Source: Escherichia coli (GTDB lineage Bacteria; Pseudomonadota; Gammaproteobacteria; Enterobacterales; Enterobacteriaceae). From it: 64,000 bases of DNA. Below are positions 6,001-12,000 of this stretch, piece after piece. Made by a program: the position numbers. The DNA lies in NCBI RefSeq assembly GCF_003334305.1, contig NZ_QOWS01000019.1. One strand, 5' to 3'. Each line of letters begins with the position of its first letter. Positions within the stretch are counted from its first letter, which is position 1.

Positions 6001-9000
6001 GTAATGGCGGAAGCCGGATACCCAGCCGCCAGAGAATACACAGAAGAGGAGGGGCATAATTGCTCCGCCACATCTTTTTGCTGTCCATCAGGGCAATGGC
6101 CCGGGCTTTTTTCTGCTCAAAGGTCACAGGAGCACCTCCGTTCCATGATGTAAACGTGACACAGCTTATTGTTATTGATTATTATTATCATGCTGTGGTT
6201 ATGTTGTCATGCATCAGTACACTGACAAAAGTGCAAAAGAAAGGAAAACAGGCAGATGAACAGAAAATATTATTTTAATAATATGTGGTGGGGATGGGTG
6301 ACGGGGGGATATATGCTGTATATGTCATGGGATTATGATTTTAAATACAGATTACTGTTCTGGTGTATTTCTCTCTGCGGAATGGTTTTGTATCCGGTTG
6401 CAAAATGGTATATTGAAGATACAGCTCTGAAATTTACCCGGCCTGATTTCTGGAACAGCGGTTTTTTTGCTGATACACCTGGAAAAATGGGATTGCTTGC
6501 TGTTTATACGGGTACTGTTTTCATATTATCTCTTCCGTTAAGTCTGATATATATTCTTTCTGTTATTATAAAAAGGCTGTCTGTAAGATAGACAGCCTGT
6601 CTTATATTTTATTTAAATACCCCAGAACTTATTCGCTTTTTCCACAAGCGATTCATCAATCAGCGCACCGGTGACAGCCATCAGTAAACCATACCCGATA
6701 ATGCCTAAAGCGCTTCCGGTAAGAATACTGAAGACCAGTGCAACAAGAGCCGTTGCGGCATTGCCTGCTATAATGGCTTCTGTTTTAACAAAAAGAGGAC
6801 GCCAGTTCTCTGTCCGGACACCCTTACCAAACTCAGTGATCCAGTCAGCAAGACTTGTAAATTTTCCTGCATATCCCAGTCCCCGACTGAATCTGTTCAG
6901 ATTAGACGATATATCAGACAGCTTCACTGACTCAAGGGCTGCGGCAATCGCTGCACGATCTTTTGCATTAATTTTTTTGTTAATGTCAGCCCGGTACTTT
7001 TCATACGTTTTTAATGCCTCTTCAACATTACGTATTTTCTTCCCTTTAGCCTGCCCGGCCATCTCTCTGGCTAACTGCTCAGCTTTTGCACCATATTTTT
7101 CTGAAACTGATTTCAGGAACTCTGTTGTGAAATTAATTGCGTCTTTCGTTGCCTTCAGTTCATCCTGTTTTCTTTTCTCTTCCGCTATCTTCTGATTGAT
7201 GCCGGCAAGCTGGTTACGGATATTCTCTTTTTCCTTCAACAGGGCATTAAGAGCGTCATTTGCATGCTTTTGCTCATTTGTTCTGGCACTGAGGTTATTT
7301 CTCGCAGAATTTACCGCAGATTCAGCAGAGGTGATTTTATTTCTGGCATCAAGCAATCTTTGCCGTAACTTATCCCATTCAGCAACTTCAGCATTATAAA
7401 TTTTCTTGTCACCTTCCACATCCTCTGTCACCACCGGATTCCGGTCATTCAGAATATTGCGTTTATAGTCCAGACCGGAATGGGTCAGAAGATAATTCAG
7501 GTTTGCACGGTTATCGATGACTGCGCTGGTTGTGATTTTTATCGTACCGGCAAATCTCGGATCACCGCTCACAACAATAGAATGATTTGTTGATGAACGC
7601 CCCGGGAATTTTTCAGGGGAAACTATCGTTTTGCCGTCAAGCGTGTTTTTCTGTTGCGTCAGCTGTTGCTCAGCTCTGGTTAATGCATTACGGGCCGTGT
7701 TAAGCGATTCCGTCACTGAACTGAGTTTATTCCGGGCCTCTGAAATGGCCCTGTCATTCCGTGTCTGCTGCCCGAGCAGACGGGCCTGTTGTGCATCAAG
7801 AACGGCAAGGGCTGCCCCGCCATTTTTTTCCAGCTCTGACAACCGCGTGTCCAGAATACCTTTTCTGCGCTCGTATTCAGCAAGCATATCAGCGGCCTTC
7901 TTGTCTGCGTTCTGCGCATCCTTCTGCCGTTTTTCAGCCTGTTCGATTAACGACCTGGCCTCCCGGGGAGATATACGAAGAGAATCAGCATCAGCAAAGA
8001 GCATCCGGCTCTCTGTATGCAGCCGGAGGGCATCATATCCGGCGATTTCAGTACGGAATCCGTATTCTCTCAGCTCTGCCTGCAGGAGTCTGAACTCCTG
8101 TCGTGTAATATCAGCGGCATCTGCGTTTCCGGCACGGAGTGTTTTCAGTGTGTTTTCATCTTTTTCCCTTGCAGCAATCGCCGCAGAGAGGCGTTTTGCG
8201 GCTTCAGTACGCTTATTCTCATTCTCTTTCTGCTGCGCGCTGAGCGTCATTTTGTACGCTGTGATTTCCTTGTCCCTTTTTTCGATATCACTTCGGGTTG
8301 GGGAATCATCGACCCACTCGTTTCCGCCCCAGATGGTTTTGTTCCCGAAGGAACTCCATGCAGGCGGGGTACCATGAAAGACATCGACACGTGGAGGGTT
8401 TACATAAATATCAACGGCCATAATTTCATGGCCATCTGAATCATACCCCAGCGATTCTGCACCGGGATTTGTAATACGTACAGGGTCAGACATTCGGTAT
8501 CTCCTTCATCCGCTGAGGAAAACAAATGAATTAACTGCTTACGTATGTGGATACATATACAGTATTAATTTATTAAGGAGAAAATGGCATGTCAAGATTT
8601 AATGATAGTGATTATCATTAACATGAAGTGATTTTACGTCTGGATAACGTAAATGATTGCGGTATACAGGCCAGGCGGTCAGATTTTCAGCCGTGCCTGT
8701 TCCTGCAGCAGTTCCAGATGATATGCAGCAATAGCGTTTACCACCCCTGCCGTCATCCGTGCGTCGGCGATCGCTGAGTGTGCCTGCCCTTCCCAGGTCA
8801 GTCCGGCCTGGCTGGCAGCACAGGCCAGTGAAATCGTGCCATAGCGGTTGGTGGCCCCATAATATCCTGCAGCCAGCTCCATCGCACAATATACCGTCAG
8901 TTCTTCCAGCCAGTCAGCCGGATCGCTATGTGCGGCAGCAGTCTGTTTCAGAATGCGGATGTCGAACCGGGCATTAAAGATAATTACTGGTCGGTCCCCG

Positions 9001-12000
9001 ATTGCATGACGCAGTTGCCGCGCCACATCTGTCCATGATGGTGCGCCGCAGAGAGCCTGCTCGCTGATACCATGCACAGCGGCGGCCTGCGCCCCGATGG
9101 CGACCGTGGGCTTCAGCCTGGTTTCAAATACCACCTGACCGGACGCATCGGTCAGGCCGATTTCCAGAGCTTCCGCGGTATTGTCCAGTCCTGTCGTTTC
9201 AGTATCCAGAAAGAGCGGTGCCAGACTCAGCCAGTCATATGCCTGCCGTGCCATCCGGCCACTGGTGCTGTTAAGTCTGGATAAAACGGAAAGTCGCTGG
9301 CCAGCCAGAAGTTGTTTACTCGTCAGTGGGCGTTTCTCACGCATCGGAACACAGTCTGCAATTCGGTATACAGCGAACCTGCCACCATAAGTGTTTTTAT
9401 ACCACTTAACCGGCTCAGCACCGGGGGCTGGCTTCATTCTGAATTCATCGCGCAGCCGTTCTTTCGAGAAACACCTGTCTTCGGCAATCGCCTGCGCACG
9501 TCTGGTGGCCAGCTCATCATTATTCATGGTTCTTGCATCTCCGTCAGACCTTTTTATATCCGGACAGCCCCTCTATGGCCACTTCTGTGCAGTATGCAAT
9601 ACACGCAGGATATACACTTTTCCCCACTGGCTGTCGACCTCATAAACCAGAACAAAATGCGGGTGAATAACCAGTTCCCGGGTACCTTCCACACGACCGT
9701 TGCGGCCTTTATACGGCTGCCCGGCCAGGCTGCTGGCTGAATAACCAATCCGTTCGTCCAGTTCAATGGCGGCCATCAGGTTCTGCTCCGCAATGTACTC
9801 ACGAATGCGCTTCCTGTCCTGGCTGGCCAGCATGGTCCAGAATATCTCCATCATTTACCGGCGACTTTCCTGCTCATTTCATCCCGCCATGCAGCAGCGG
9901 AAGATTCGACCATGTCATGGGGAAGCACATCGCCGCGCTCGAGTTGCTGACGTCCTGCCTCAACCTGGTCACGGAACCAGGTATTATGCTGCCGTTCCAC
10001 GGTCTGGCGCATAAAATCCCGGATTAACTGAGAGCCATTACGGTCCATGCTTTTTGCAGCGGCCATAAAAGCATCCTTCAGTTCAGCGTCAATTCTTAAA
10101 CTCATATTAACCTGTGCCATTTATCACCTCGTCATTACTACGTATATACACAGTATATAACGATTCAGATATCGTCACCAGAATATGCCGCGTCAGCGGC
10201 ATGGAAGGCGGCACTCTGTTGTTGCATATGACACAGGAGTAAAACCGCCGAAGCCCGGCGTAAGCCGGTACGGACTGATAGATTTCACCTTACCCATCCC
10301 CAGCCCTGCTAGGCCATATCCGCTTTCAGCCATGATAAAGCTTCTGTGCGCGGTCGGAGTGGTCCCGACGAGGGTTTACCCGAAGTCGGGGCGTATCTCC
10401 GCGTTAGCGGGCCGTCAGGGCCGCTTACGAGCGTGTACTCAATACTTTCAGCGAGAAGACTGACAGCCATGATGGAGTATAGTTACAACATTCATAATTA
10501 AAAGCGACTCTGTTCCGGCCCGAAGGGCCGGGGCGGGGCCGCTTTTCAGTTATGAGGGAGGGGCTTTGTGGTTTCAGTTCTGCGCTGGTTCGGGGTTTTT
10601 CTGGAGGTTGGTTTTGTGTGTTGTAACTAAAGTGGCTCCGGTTGGGGCCCGCCGTTTACGGTGGGAGGTGCATATCTGTCTGTCCACAGGACAGGCAGTG
10701 AATAGGTTTTCTTTTTAAATGAATGTAATTAAGTAGTTTAAAGGAGATATAAACAGGTGTTTAAAAGATACATTGCACCCTGTAAGACTGGCGGCTGGCG
10801 CTTTATGACATGAACGGTTGTAACCTTATGGGGAAGTCCATTGTAGTTAAATGTGGATAAGCAAATTTCCCCGTCTGTGAGGCGTGTTTTGTATCAAAAA
10901 CAGGAGGGACCGGATGCACCTGAAGGTGGATGATGAGGTTGTTTTTTGTATGCGGTGCTGTTTTTTTGTTCGCTGACAGGCTTCAGGCGTGCAGATGCCT
11001 CCGGTGCGGGCCGGATTATTCAGAGGAGGTCACTTTCAGGGGGAAGCTGTGGCCAGCCGGCTGTAATTACGGTTACGTGACAGAATCATGCGCTCTTTCA
11101 CACGACGCTCCACTTCGCGTTTTACCGCCTCACGATTGGCAGTGAAGCGCCCTTCCGAGATTTCACGCGTCAGCTGCCGTTTCACCAGGGTGACGATATC
11201 CTGACGTTCCCTGTTCGCATCACGACGCGCACGGGCACGCTTTATTCCACGGGACTTAAGCTCTGTCTGGTAACTGCGGAAACGCTCACGCACAAAACGC
11301 CAGGCTTTCGCTATCAGTTCATCCATACCCAGGGTATCCAGTCCCTGCTTTTTACGCTGTCTGTTTTCCCATTCAACACGACTGCGGCGCGCAGCAACCA
11401 CTGCATCCTCAGACACATCAAGGGCGGCAAATAGCGCCGGTGTGAACGTGATATCGGTCGGAATGTAGCACCCGATAAGCGGATCATATTCCGTCTGGTA
11501 GGTAATCAGTCCCAGCTCTGCAAGGAACGTCAGGGCTCGGGTGGCCCGGGTGATGGAGAGTTTTCCGGCAGCAGACTCCGTCGCCAGTCCGCACTCAATG
11601 GCCAGCGTAGTGATGGAGCACTGGACGCGGTTGGCCAGCGGGTCATAGTGAAAACACAGCCCCTGCAGCAGCGCATCAATGGCCCGGCGACGCAGTACCG
11701 GTGGCATGCGCCGACGCAGTCCCTTCGAACGGGCATGTGCCACATGAATGGCGAAATCAAAACGGGAGGTGAAGCCCACCGCCTTTTCCATCAGTTTTTC
11801 GCAGAACTTCAGCGTTCCGGCACCTTCACGGGGTGTGAACACCGGATTCGGGTTCTTTACCTGGCGGTAATACGTTTGTTGAAGATCAGTCACACCATCC
11901 TGCACTTACAATGCGCAGAAGGAGTGAGCACAGAAAGAAGTCTTGAACTTTTCCGGGCATATGACTATACTCCCCGCATAGCTGAATTGTTGGCTATACG

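What the first reader, a model, noticed from the sequence alone, without database searches (positions are those of the whole stretch)
8679..10120. RelE/ParE-type toxin-antitoxin pair co-oriented with a DEDD exonuclease next to the replicon
The RHH antitoxin, the toxin and a DnaQ-like 3'-5' exonuclease are encoded in series on the same strand with only 45 bp between toxin and exonuclease. A nuclease tightly associated with an addiction module may be more than coincidental (for example a role in plasmid maintenance or defence).
Basis: inference. Interest (0 to 1): 0.3.

Follow-up and report, generated by a model that had tools for sequence, protein, structure and literature searches.

The report
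Known plasmid toxin-antitoxin plus hitch-hiking exonuclease
The three genes are real and are the already annotated yacA-yacB-yacC block of ColV/IncI plasmids: a characterised ParDE-type addiction module that works alone, followed by an uncharacterised plasmid exonuclease that was placed behind it by a later rearrangement, so the pairing is ordinary synteny and not a new three-part system.

Summary
Observation confirmed. On the minus strand lie yacA (9851-10120), yacB (9573-9854) and, 45 bp downstream, a 282-aa DEDDh exonuclease, yacC (8679-9527), beside an IncFII replicon. The stretch is 100% identical to pECOS88/pS88, where the genes already carry these names.

YacAB is the published ParDE^I module. 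Cloned as two genes, it stabilises plasmids and its toxin induces SOS (PMC6614396).

The exonuclease is separable from the TA pair:
- About a third of PLSDB plasmids with yacAB lack the junction, and homology ends at the yacB stop codon.
- The same exonuclease family (a conserved ~100-aa N-terminal domain plus DEDDh) was examined in 19 other lineages. None has a TA pair directly upstream. The neighbours are KfrA, recombinases, Rep, ParA or relaxase genes.
- The 45-bp spacer keeps the 3' end of the small ORF that precedes the exonuclease in IncL/M plasmids, so the junction is secondary.

No terminator or usable promoter separates yacB from yacC, so read-through from the yacA promoter is likely but unproven. 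The exonuclease is under purifying selection (dN/dS about 0.13) and its function is unknown. There is no evidence for defence. Low interest; already known.

The parts
10246..10260 (-). Terminator-like hairpin (CGCCGGGCTTCGGCG followed by GTTTTACTCC) upstream of the yacA promoter region. It would insulate yacAB(C) from transcription coming out of the repA/ori region.
   Evidence: Consensus scan; sequence. Function inferred.
10143..10178 (-). Promoter-like and operator-like region of yacA. It has a -10-like TATACT (10157-10152) and only weak -35 candidates (GTGACG 10178-10173 at 15 nt; TGGTGA 10180-10175 at 17 nt). A perfect inverted repeat TATATAC-TGT-GTATATA (10159-10143) overlaps the -10 and is the likely ParD/YacA operator.
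   Evidence: Sequence read directly. Palindrome also reported by the repeat finder. The palindrome core is kept in the 85%-identical yacAB of L004, although the DNA further upstream is unrelated. The promoter did not pass the scan threshold. Operator function is inferred from how type II TA systems are usually autoregulated.
9851..10120 (-). yacA = parD^I, the antitoxin (89 aa).
   Evidence: ORF. RefSeq name YacA. Weak RHH/RelB profile hits. 98% nt identity to the characterised ParDE^I (PMC6614396 Table S1 lists pECOS88; the window is 100% identical to pECOS88).
9573..9854 (-). yacB = parE^I, a ParE/RelE-superfamily toxin (93 aa; 92 aa from the RefSeq start at 9851). Its start overlaps the yacA stop.
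   Evidence: Toxicity, SOS induction and filamentation are reported for ParE^I in PMC6614396.
9528..9572 (-). The 45-bp spacer. It has no terminator and is in frame with both genes. GGAG (9542-9539) lies 11 nt before the yacC ATG. The last 23 nt (9550-9528) are 19/23 identical to the 3' end ('...RLTEME*') of the small ORF that precedes the exonuclease in IncL/M and Photorhabdus plasmids. This is a scar of the rearrangement that put yacAB in front of yacC.
   Evidence: In-frame read-through fusion P0001 (384 aa).
9219..9527 (-). yacC N-terminal domain (residues 1-103), a conserved alpha/beta domain followed by two helices. It is found only fused to this exonuclease.
8679..9218 (-). yacC DEDDh 3'-5' exonuclease domain (residues 104-282) plus the stop codon.
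   Evidence: dN/dS is 0.13 against both the IncK and the IncL/M copies.

Best explanation
The locus holds two separable plasmid-backbone modules that a past rearrangement placed in series.

Module 1 is yacA-yacB, the published ParDE^I type II toxin-antitoxin system.
- It is a self-contained cassette running from a palindromic operator/promoter to the toxin stop codon.
- The antitoxin (with toxin) presumably represses the promoter.
- After plasmid loss or stress the labile antitoxin decays, and the ParE-type toxin causes DNA damage, SOS induction and growth arrest. This stabilises the plasmid.

Module 2 is yacC. It belongs to a widespread, uncharacterised plasmid family made of a ~100-aa N-terminal (probably nucleic-acid-binding) domain fused to an intact DEDDh 3'-5' exonuclease.
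- In other plasmids this gene is the distal gene behind an autoregulated DNA-binding protein (KfrA, or a small ORF that looks winged-helix-like by eye), or it lies beside recombinase, Rep, ParA or relaxase genes.
- In the IncI/IncK/ColV-IncF lineage the yacAB cassette replaced almost all of the upstream ORF seen in IncL/M and Photorhabdus. The exonuclease is therefore now most likely expressed by read-through from the yacA promoter.
- It probably trims 3' ends of plasmid DNA intermediates (replication, resolution or transfer) and takes no part in the toxin-antitoxin mechanism.

What is shown: gene identities, separability, the junction scar and purifying selection. What is inferred: co-transcription, the operator function and the exonuclease substrate.
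For: Identity:
- 100% match to pECOS88, where the genes are annotated yacA, yacB and 3'-5' exonuclease. The pS88 paper names them yacA/B/C (PMC3438092).
- ParDE^I Table S1 lists pECOS88 at 100% coverage and 98% identity. The paper says identical toxins are annotated YacB.

TA autonomy:
- Cloned parDE^I with its own promoter gave complete retention of low- and high-copy vectors.

Separability:
- yacAB covers at least 80% of its query in 1656 PLSDB records, but the junction is intact in only 1128.
- Partial junction hits start at query positions 271-275, which is the yacB stop codon.
- L020, L021 and L004 carry unrelated DNA straight after the stop, with TAA, TAA and TGA in place of TAG.
- The exonuclease family covers at least 80% of the protein in 2678 PLSDB records.
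- Contexts without an adjacent TA pair: IncL/M, IncC, a Salmonella Infantis megaplasmid, a Pseudomonas megaplasmid, a K. michiganensis IncFIB plasmid, an IncP/IncU-typed plasmid, Salmonella and Citrobacter plasmids, and nine more distant members (76-81, 91-93).
- KfrA lies directly upstream in L010, L012, L022 and L032, and in L011 with a 63-aa ORF between.

Junction scar: 19/23 identity of the spacer to the 3' end of the IncL/M and Photorhabdus upstream ORF.

Operon:
- No terminator-like site between yacB and yacC, and the only promoter-like site overlaps the yacC ATG.
- A terminator-like hairpin and a conserved palindrome lie upstream of yacA.
- yacA, yacB and yacC transcripts move in the same direction in three of four pS88 growth conditions (0.31-0.96-fold, none statistically significant).

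The exonuclease is a functional gene: catalytic residues are invariant, dN/dS is 0.13 and the fold is confident.
Against: - There is no transcript map, so an internal promoter inside yacB cannot be excluded. A 9/12 promoter-like match exists at 9547-9519.
- The yacA promoter itself did not pass the consensus scan.
- In the fourth pS88 condition the three genes differ (4.30, 1.57 and 0.95-fold).
- One other lineage (Photorhabdus) has a different TA pair (pemIK) on the same strand, one gene upstream of the exonuclease. A Salmonella plasmid has parDE divergent from kfrA-exo. A loose tendency to sit near TA modules therefore exists.
- The context survey covers 20 lineages chosen by hand and is not an exhaustive statistical test.
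Confidence: 0.72

Rival explanations
1. yacC is a genuine third component of the toxin-antitoxin system. For example, it might process or repair the DNA damage caused by the ParE-type toxin, or help kill plasmid-free cells. The three genes would then form one functional unit.
For: - Same strand, 45-bp gap, no terminator.
- The junction is conserved in 1128 plasmids of two replicon groups.
- The ParE^I toxin induces SOS, implying DNA damage on which an exonuclease could act.
- Three-component ParE systems exist (PaaR2-PaaA2-ParE2, from my own knowledge), and YacB's closest solved relative is that ParE2.
Against: - The two-gene module is sufficient for stabilisation and tolerance phenotypes.
- About 32% of near-complete yacAB copies lack the junction, with breakpoints at the stop codon.
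- The exonuclease family lives without TA partners in 19 other lineages and is under equal purifying selection there.
- The spacer shows the junction is a secondary fusion.
Confidence: 0.07
2. yacC is transcribed independently from a promoter inside the 3' end of yacB or in the spacer. The adjacency would then have no regulatory meaning at all.
For: - A promoter-like site CTGACG-17-AATAAT lies at 9547-9519 (9/12 match).
- yacA and yacC fold-changes differ in one pS88 condition (4.30 vs 0.95).
- The retained 23 nt of the ancestral upstream region includes the ribosome-binding site, so translation signals are native to the exonuclease.
Against: - The -10 hexamer of that site ends at 9519, downstream of the ATG at 9527, so it cannot give an mRNA that includes the annotated start.
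- No other promoter-like site precedes yacC within yacB or the spacer.
- In other lineages the exonuclease is tightly packed behind an upstream gene, with 1-4 bp overlaps or gaps. This suggests it normally relies on an upstream promoter.
Confidence: 0.2
3. yacC is an anti-phage defence or counter-defence nuclease carried by the plasmid.
For: - PADLOC profile hits: Cas-associated DEDDh 6.6e-29 and candidate system PDC-S48 5.2e-22.
- Plasmids often carry such genes.
- One distant chromosomal homologue lies near AAA-ATPase and S8-peptidase genes.
Against: - The hits cover only the generic exonuclease domain (residues 105-268). The PDC-S48 profile is 411 positions long and only positions 9-168 match.
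- No cas or other defence partners are nearby.
- Neighbours across lineages are replication, partition, resolution and mobilisation genes, not defence islands.
- In IncL/M the gene is about 20 kb from the ardA-ssb leading region.
Confidence: 0.07
4. yacC is a plasmid-borne proofreading subunit (an epsilon/DnaQ substitute) that changes the fidelity of plasmid or translesion replication.
For: - The best sequence and structure matches are to Pol III epsilon and PolC exonuclease domains.
- In IncL/M the gene lies next to umuDC.
- Some records annotate it as 'DNA polymerase III subunit epsilon'.
Against: - It scores 55 bits against a 222.7-bit cut-off for dnaQ.
- The protein ends with the last helix of the exonuclease domain and has no C-terminal segment like the one that tethers epsilon to the alpha subunit. 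It carries an unrelated N-terminal domain instead.
- It is convergent with umuDC, not co-transcribed with it.
Confidence: 0.08

Closest known systems
ParDE^I (YacAB) toxin-antitoxin system of IncI1 plasmid pJIE512b (Kamruzzaman & Iredell 2019, PMC6614396)
   Same: - The same genes: the paper's Table S1 lists pECOS88 at 100% coverage and 98% identity, and the window is 100% identical to pECOS88.
- The same position beside the replicon in IncI and IncF plasmids.
- A ParE-fold toxin and a small overlapping antitoxin gene.
   Different: Nothing material for yacAB. The paper treats the system as two genes and does not mention the downstream exonuclease ('exonuclease' occurs 0 times in the main text).
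yacA-yacB-yacC annotation of ColV-Ia plasmid pS88/pECOS88 and of IncI1/IncK plasmids
   Same: Identical sequence and gene order. yacC is already annotated as a 'putative exoribonuclease' or '3'-5' exonuclease'.
   Different: The annotation assigns no function and no relationship between yacC and yacAB. I found no description of them in the papers searched.
Three-component ParE systems PaaR2-PaaA2-ParE2 of E. coli O157:H7 (PDB 5cw7/5cze)
   Same: YacB's closest solved relative is ParE2 (3.5e-8). Both are loci with a third co-oriented gene.
   Different: In that system the third gene is a transcriptional regulator that belongs to the system (from my own knowledge). Here the third gene is an exonuclease that is separable from the pair, and the antitoxin is a different type.
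DnaQ/epsilon, ExoX, RNase T and DinG-exonuclease members of the DEDDh superfamily
   Same: Same fold and catalytic residues.
   Different: - About 23% identity.
- A unique N-terminal ~100-aa domain.
- No epsilon-type C-terminal tail.
- Plasmid-borne, and below all curated family cut-offs.

Membership tests
Type II toxin-antitoxin system, ParDE/RelBE superfamily | Toxin with the RelE/ParE fold | tested here: met
   Pfam ParE_toxin 4.7e-17 over residues 4-92. TIGR02385 scores 31.8 bits against a cut-off of 27.9. PDB ParE2 5cw7, 3.5e-8, full length.
Type II toxin-antitoxin system, ParDE/RelBE superfamily | Small antitoxin gene immediately upstream, with a start/stop overlap that suggests translational coupling | tested here: met
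   The yacA stop and the yacB start overlap (ATGA at 9854-9851).
Type II toxin-antitoxin system, ParDE/RelBE superfamily | Antitoxin with an N-terminal ribbon-helix-helix DNA-binding domain | tested here: inconclusive
   Pfam RHH_1 E 0.021 and RelB E 0.046. TIGR02384 scores 24.7 bits, below its 45.65 cut-off. No significant PDB sequence match. An RHH motif is asserted in PMC6614396.
Type II toxin-antitoxin system, ParDE/RelBE superfamily | Autoregulated promoter with a palindromic operator | tested here: inconclusive
   A perfect 7-bp inverted repeat at 10143-10159 overlaps a -10-like TATACT and is conserved in the divergent L004 copy. Binding and repression were not testable.
Type II toxin-antitoxin system, ParDE/RelBE superfamily | Toxin arrests growth, antitoxin neutralises it, and the pair stabilises a plasmid | not testable with these tools
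   Reported experimentally for ParDE^I at 98% nt identity (PMC6614396).
Three-component (tripartite) toxin-antitoxin system | The third gene is co-inherited with the TA pair and needed for its function | tested here: not met
   - yacAB occurs without yacC in L004, L005, L020 and L021, and in about 32% of PLSDB copies.
- The yacC family was seen without a directly adjacent TA pair in 19 lineages.
- The two-gene clone is sufficient.
DEDDh (DnaQ-like) 3'-5' exonuclease superfamily | ExoI DxE, ExoII D and ExoIII H-x4-D catalytic motifs | tested here: met
   D108, E110, D189, H250 and D255 are invariant in 18 sequences down to 34% identity.
DEDDh (DnaQ-like) 3'-5' exonuclease superfamily | RNase H-like exonuclease fold | tested here: met
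   AF2 pLDDT 94. Foldseek 2gui, E 5.3e-9, TMt 0.79; also ExoX, RNase T and the DinG exonuclease domain.
DEDDh (DnaQ-like) 3'-5' exonuclease superfamily | Mg2+-dependent 3'-5' exonuclease activity, and its substrate (DNA or RNA) | not testable with these tools
   No biochemical report was found in the paper searches.
DNA polymerase III epsilon subunit (DnaQ proper) | Score above the curated family cut-off | tested here: not met
   TIGR01406 scores 55.3 bits against a cut-off of 222.7. NF004316 scores 52.8 against 196.
DNA polymerase III epsilon subunit (DnaQ proper) | C-terminal segment after the exonuclease domain that binds the alpha subunit or the clamp | tested here: not met
   The protein ends at residue 282, within the last helix of the exonuclease domain (H252-281). 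The extra ~100 residues are N-terminal. The epsilon architecture is taken from established knowledge.
Anti-phage defence systems in PADLOC (PDC-S48; Cas-associated DEDDh) | Full-length match to the system protein, plus the partner genes | tested here: not met
   The hits cover only the exonuclease domain: profile positions 9-168 of 411 for PDC-S48, and a 139-position domain model for DEDDh. The neighbours are the TA pair, the replicon and colicin Ia.

The most novel reading that the evidence does not exclude
YacC would represent a large, unstudied family of plasmid-specific exonucleases (a private N-terminal DNA-binding-like domain plus DEDDh) that acts on plasmid DNA intermediates together with KfrA, partition, resolution or relaxase functions. 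In the IncI/ColV lineage its capture behind the ParD-ParE promoter would mean it is derepressed exactly when the antitoxin is degraded. Exonuclease supply would then be coupled to ParE-induced gyrase damage and SOS, just upstream of the SOS-controlled colicin Ia gene. In that case the juxtaposition, although secondary, would have gained regulatory meaning.
Probability: 0.12. Interest if true: 0.5.

Novelty: already known. Interest (0 to 1): 0.15.

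Why it matters
As posed, the finding matters little. The toxin-antitoxin pair has been characterised experimentally. The three-gene order is annotated in well over a thousand sequenced plasmids. The evidence points to a rearrangement, not a new three-part system.

One point is mildly useful. The exonuclease belongs to a very common family that, as far as I could find, has not been studied. It occurs on IncI, IncF, IncL/M and IncC plasmids, on an IncP/IncU-typed plasmid and on Pseudomonas megaplasmids, which include major carriers of antibiotic resistance. It keeps its catalytic residues under purifying selection. It habitually sits behind KfrA or next to recombinases and replication or mobilisation genes. 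Knowing what it does could reveal an overlooked step in plasmid DNA upkeep.

Tried and rejected
- Defence role. The PADLOC scan gave only domain-level DEDDh hits, and no defence neighbours were seen. Rejected as unsupported.
- Phage origin. PHROGs gave a fragment family of unknown function and generic polymerase-exonuclease families. Uninformative.
- Function of the small ORFs next to the exonuclease in other lineages. NCBIfam gave nothing for eight of them. Only the IncL/M and Photorhabdus ORFs are related to each other.
- Literature on the exonuclease. Searches for yacC, Ycg4D, KfrA plus exonuclease, and pOXA-48 plus exonuclease found only annotation-level mentions.
- pJIE512b (HG970648) is not in the plasmid collection. 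Identity with ParDE^I was therefore established through the paper's Table S1 entry for pECOS88.
- Leading-region (early establishment) role. In IncL/M the gene lies in the maintenance region, about 20 kb from ardA-ssb. Not supported.
- Not run: an exhaustive genome contigs or metagenome scan. It seemed unnecessary after 20 concordant lineages, so the absence of TA enrichment is not a formal statistic.

Full report
**What is there**

All three genes lie on the minus strand of the window:
- an 89-aa ORF at 9851-10120;
- a 93-aa ORF at 9573-9854, whose ATG overlaps the first ORF's TGA;
- after a 45-bp gap (9528-9572), a 282-aa ORF at 8679-9527.

Upstream on the same strand is an IncFII replicon:
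- repA1 at 11036-11905;
- CopA antisense RNA at 11978-12069 (Rfam, 99 bits);
- copB/repA2 at 12186-12446.

Downstream are the colicin Ia gene (6613-8493), with its TTGACA-17-TAAATT promoter and an SOS-box-like sequence, and the immunity gene.

**Identity of the genes**

The 1.8-kb stretch is 100% identical to many sequenced plasmids, among them pECOS88/pS88 of E. coli S88. There the genes are annotated yacA (antitoxin), yacB (toxin) and 3'-5' exonuclease. The pS88 transcriptome paper calls them yacA, yacB and yacC (PMC3438092).

YacB:
- matches Pfam ParE_toxin (4.7e-17);
- passes the NCBIfam RelE/StbE cut-off;
- is closest among solved structures to ParE2 of E. coli O157 (5cw7, 3.5e-8).

YacA gives only weak RHH/RelB signals.

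YacC has an RNase_T/DnaQ-type domain at residues 105-266. All five DEDDh residues are invariant across homologues down to 34% identity. The AlphaFold model is confident (pLDDT 94), and its C-terminal domain superposes on the Pol III epsilon, ExoX, DinG-exonuclease and RNase T domains.

**The TA pair is already characterised and works alone**

Kamruzzaman and Iredell (PMC6614396) described this module as ParDE^I in IncI1 plasmid pJIE512b, and noted that identical toxins are annotated YacB. Their Table S1 lists pECOS88 at 100% coverage and 98% identity.

Their findings:
- The two genes, cloned with their own promoter on pACYC184 or pBCSK+, gave complete plasmid retention. Vector controls were lost from 50-60% of cells.
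- The toxin alone induced recA/lexA expression and filamentation.
- Toxin effects were reversed by co-expressing the antitoxin.

The exonuclease does not appear in that paper's main text. In Shigella pINV the same pair is present, but the toxin is frameshifted (PMC9455713, PMC7354431).

**Is the exonuclease tied to the TA pair?**

Three lines of evidence say no.

1. Counts in PLSDB.
   - Near-complete yacAB is in 1656 records.
   - A 501-bp probe spanning the yacB-yacC junction is at least 80% covered in only 1128 records.
   - Many partial hits begin at probe positions 271-275, which is the yacB stop codon.
   - Inspection of L020 (IncI-gamma/K1), L021 (IncF, with N1pC/P60 and TIR genes instead) and L004 (IncFII of S. 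Bareilly) shows unrelated DNA directly after the stop. Even the stop codon differs: TAA, TAA and TGA against TAG in the window.
   - Upstream, the 85%-identical L004 copy shares only the last ~45 nt before the ATG. That stretch includes the palindrome core.
   - So yacAB is a cassette bounded by its operator/promoter and its stop codon.

2. The exonuclease family is much wider than the yacABC block.
   - tblastn finds at least 80% of the protein in 2678 PLSDB records.
   - A search of 1.84 billion representatives finds 103 clusters below 1e-30. Many span both domains at 32-50% identity.
   - I examined 19 lineages other than yacABC:

   | Lineage or member | What sits next to the exonuclease |
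   |---|---|
   | IncL/M | 106-aa ORF then exo; convergent with umuDC |
   | IncC | tyrosine recombinase then exo |
   | S. Infantis megaplasmid | no informative annotated neighbour (listed gene table sparse) |
   | Pseudomonas megaplasmid | 90-aa ORF then exo |
   | K. michiganensis IncFIB | KfrA-like then exo |
   | IncP/IncU-typed plasmid | KfrA-like, 63-aa ORF, exo |
   | Salmonella plasmid | kfrA-exo with 4-bp overlap; parDE divergent |
   | Citrobacter plasmid | kfrA, further ORFs including a 180-aa ORF, then exo |
   | Photorhabdus | pemIK, 116-aa ORF, exo, parA |
   | P0124 | kfrA then exo |
   | P0130 | parA, 98-aa ORF, exo |
   | P0138 | RepL, two ORFs, exo |
   | P0149 | NikA, exo, relaxase |
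   | P0175 | Rep_1, 95-aa ORF, exo |
   | P0183 | chromosomal copy |
   | P0127 | ArdC-primase-like gene, two ORFs, exo, resolvase |
   | P0133 | kfrA then exo |
   | P0200 | exo convergent with a resolvase |

   - The nineteenth lineage is the second IncL/M variant (L003), which has the same arrangement as the first.
   - None has a TA pair directly upstream. Only Photorhabdus has one a gene away.
   - The recurrent neighbours are KfrA, site-specific recombinases, and replication, partition and mobilisation genes. A recombinase-exonuclease fusion also exists (P0097).

3. The junction is visibly secondary.
   - The last 23 nt of the 45-bp spacer (9550-9528) match 19/23 the 3' end of the small ORF that precedes the exonuclease in IncL/M and Photorhabdus. 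That stretch encodes '...RLTEME*' and contains the GGAG ribosome-binding site.
   - By my own binomial estimate, a match this good at a fixed position has a chance probability of about 1e-8.
   - The yacAB cassette therefore displaced almost all of an upstream gene that the exonuclease has in those plasmids.

**Is the exonuclease a working gene?**

dN/dS is 0.13 between the window copy and the IncK copy (dS 0.08), and 0.13-0.14 against the TA-less IncL/M copies (dS 0.56-0.58). Selection is therefore equally strong with and without yacAB.

The gene is nevertheless dispensable in some plasmids:
- IS26 insertions;
- truncations in about 20% of nucleotide hits;
- split copies in some Salmonella plasmids.

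**How the locus most likely works**

Shown by sequence:
- a terminator-like hairpin at 10260-10246;
- a -10-like TATACT overlapped by a perfect TATATAC-TGT-GTATATA palindrome at 10159-10143;
- a GAGG Shine-Dalgarno sequence before yacA;
- overlapping yacA and yacB;
- no terminator-like site in yacB, the spacer or yacC;
- only one promoter-like match before yacC, and its -10 lies past the ATG.

Inferred:
- YacA, or a YacA-YacB complex, represses the promoter at the palindrome.
- yacC is expressed by read-through at a low, autoregulated level.

This mirrors its position behind autoregulated DNA-binding genes in other plasmids. pS88 qRT-PCR shows the three genes moving in the same direction in three of four conditions (0.31-0.96-fold, none statistically significant), but they differ in the fourth. 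That evidence is weak.

The exonuclease's own role is unknown. Three things suggest 3'-end processing of plasmid DNA intermediates:
- the intact active site;
- the weak resemblance of the private N-terminal domain to DNA-binding domains (Rad4/XPC BHD, ArdC N-terminal domain, XPA);
- its genomic company.

It is not an epsilon-type proofreader. It falls far below the dnaQ cut-offs and lacks the C-terminal tether. Defence is unsupported.

**Comparison and verdict**

The TA pair is a member, in fact the type example, of ParDE^I. The exonuclease is a member of the DEDDh superfamily but of no curated subfamily. The three genes do not meet the defining feature of a three-component TA system, because the third gene is separable from the pair and is not needed for the pair's function.

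The arrangement is already annotated and the TA pair already studied, so novelty is nil for the finding as stated. What remains of interest is modest: a common plasmid exonuclease family for which I found no functional study, and a neat example of a TA cassette capturing a downstream gene.

Noticed in passing
window 9528-9575 (minus strand): The yacB stop codon (TAG) and the yacC ATG are in the same reading frame, 45 nt apart. A 384-aa YacB-YacC read-through fusion (TAG to CAG; P0001, Pfam ParE_toxin + RNase_T) exists in 11 database sequences on 3 contigs.
   Followed up: partly
window 9528-9550; L002 5843-6163; L019 3648-3998: The spacer keeps the 3' end of a 106/116-aa ORF. The ORF looks winged-helix-like by eye and has no family match. 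The two copies are 85% identical to each other, and the ORF precedes the exonuclease in IncL/M and Photorhabdus plasmids. This ORF may be the exonuclease's original operon partner or regulator.
   Followed up: partly
L010, L011, L012, L022, L032 (kfrA then exo); L007, L031, L033 and P0097 (recombinase next to or fused with exo); L027 (NikA-exo-relaxase): The YacC-family exonuclease recurrently sits directly behind KfrA or beside site-specific recombinases, Rep or relaxase genes. This suggests an unrecognised plasmid-maintenance function.
   Followed up: partly
window 8480-8679: No terminator-like site separates the yacC stop from the colicin Ia promoter (TTGACA-17-TAAATT at 8595-8567) and its SOS-box-like sequence. 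Read-through from yacABC into cia is conceivable. The ParE^I toxin is reported to induce SOS, which would also induce colicin Ia.
   Followed up: no
window 13056-13238 (+): Strong Rfam match to AS-pc02 (antisense to pHK01_099), 195.7 bits, in the region between the replicon and finO/traX.
   Followed up: no
window 12491-12952 (-): A 153-aa ORF with a signal-peptide-like N-terminus. By eye it resembles staphylococcal nuclease. It is probably the gene the pS88 paper lists as 'putative nuclease YigB', and it lies just upstream of copB. It is truncated or divergent at its C-terminus relative to what I would expect.
   Followed up: no
CP099250.1, CP099247.1, CP099244.1 (hits H1-H3, H26): IS26 is inserted inside yacC in three otherwise identical 161-kb plasmids. 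This shows the exonuclease can be lost while yacAB stays intact.
   Followed up: no
L002/L030 3738-5012 (IncL/M): The 8-gene co-oriented cluster that ends in the exonuclease begins with a 424-aa protein annotated as a 'RelB/DinJ family antitoxin'. That is far too long for an antitoxin, and its nature was not examined.
   Followed up: no
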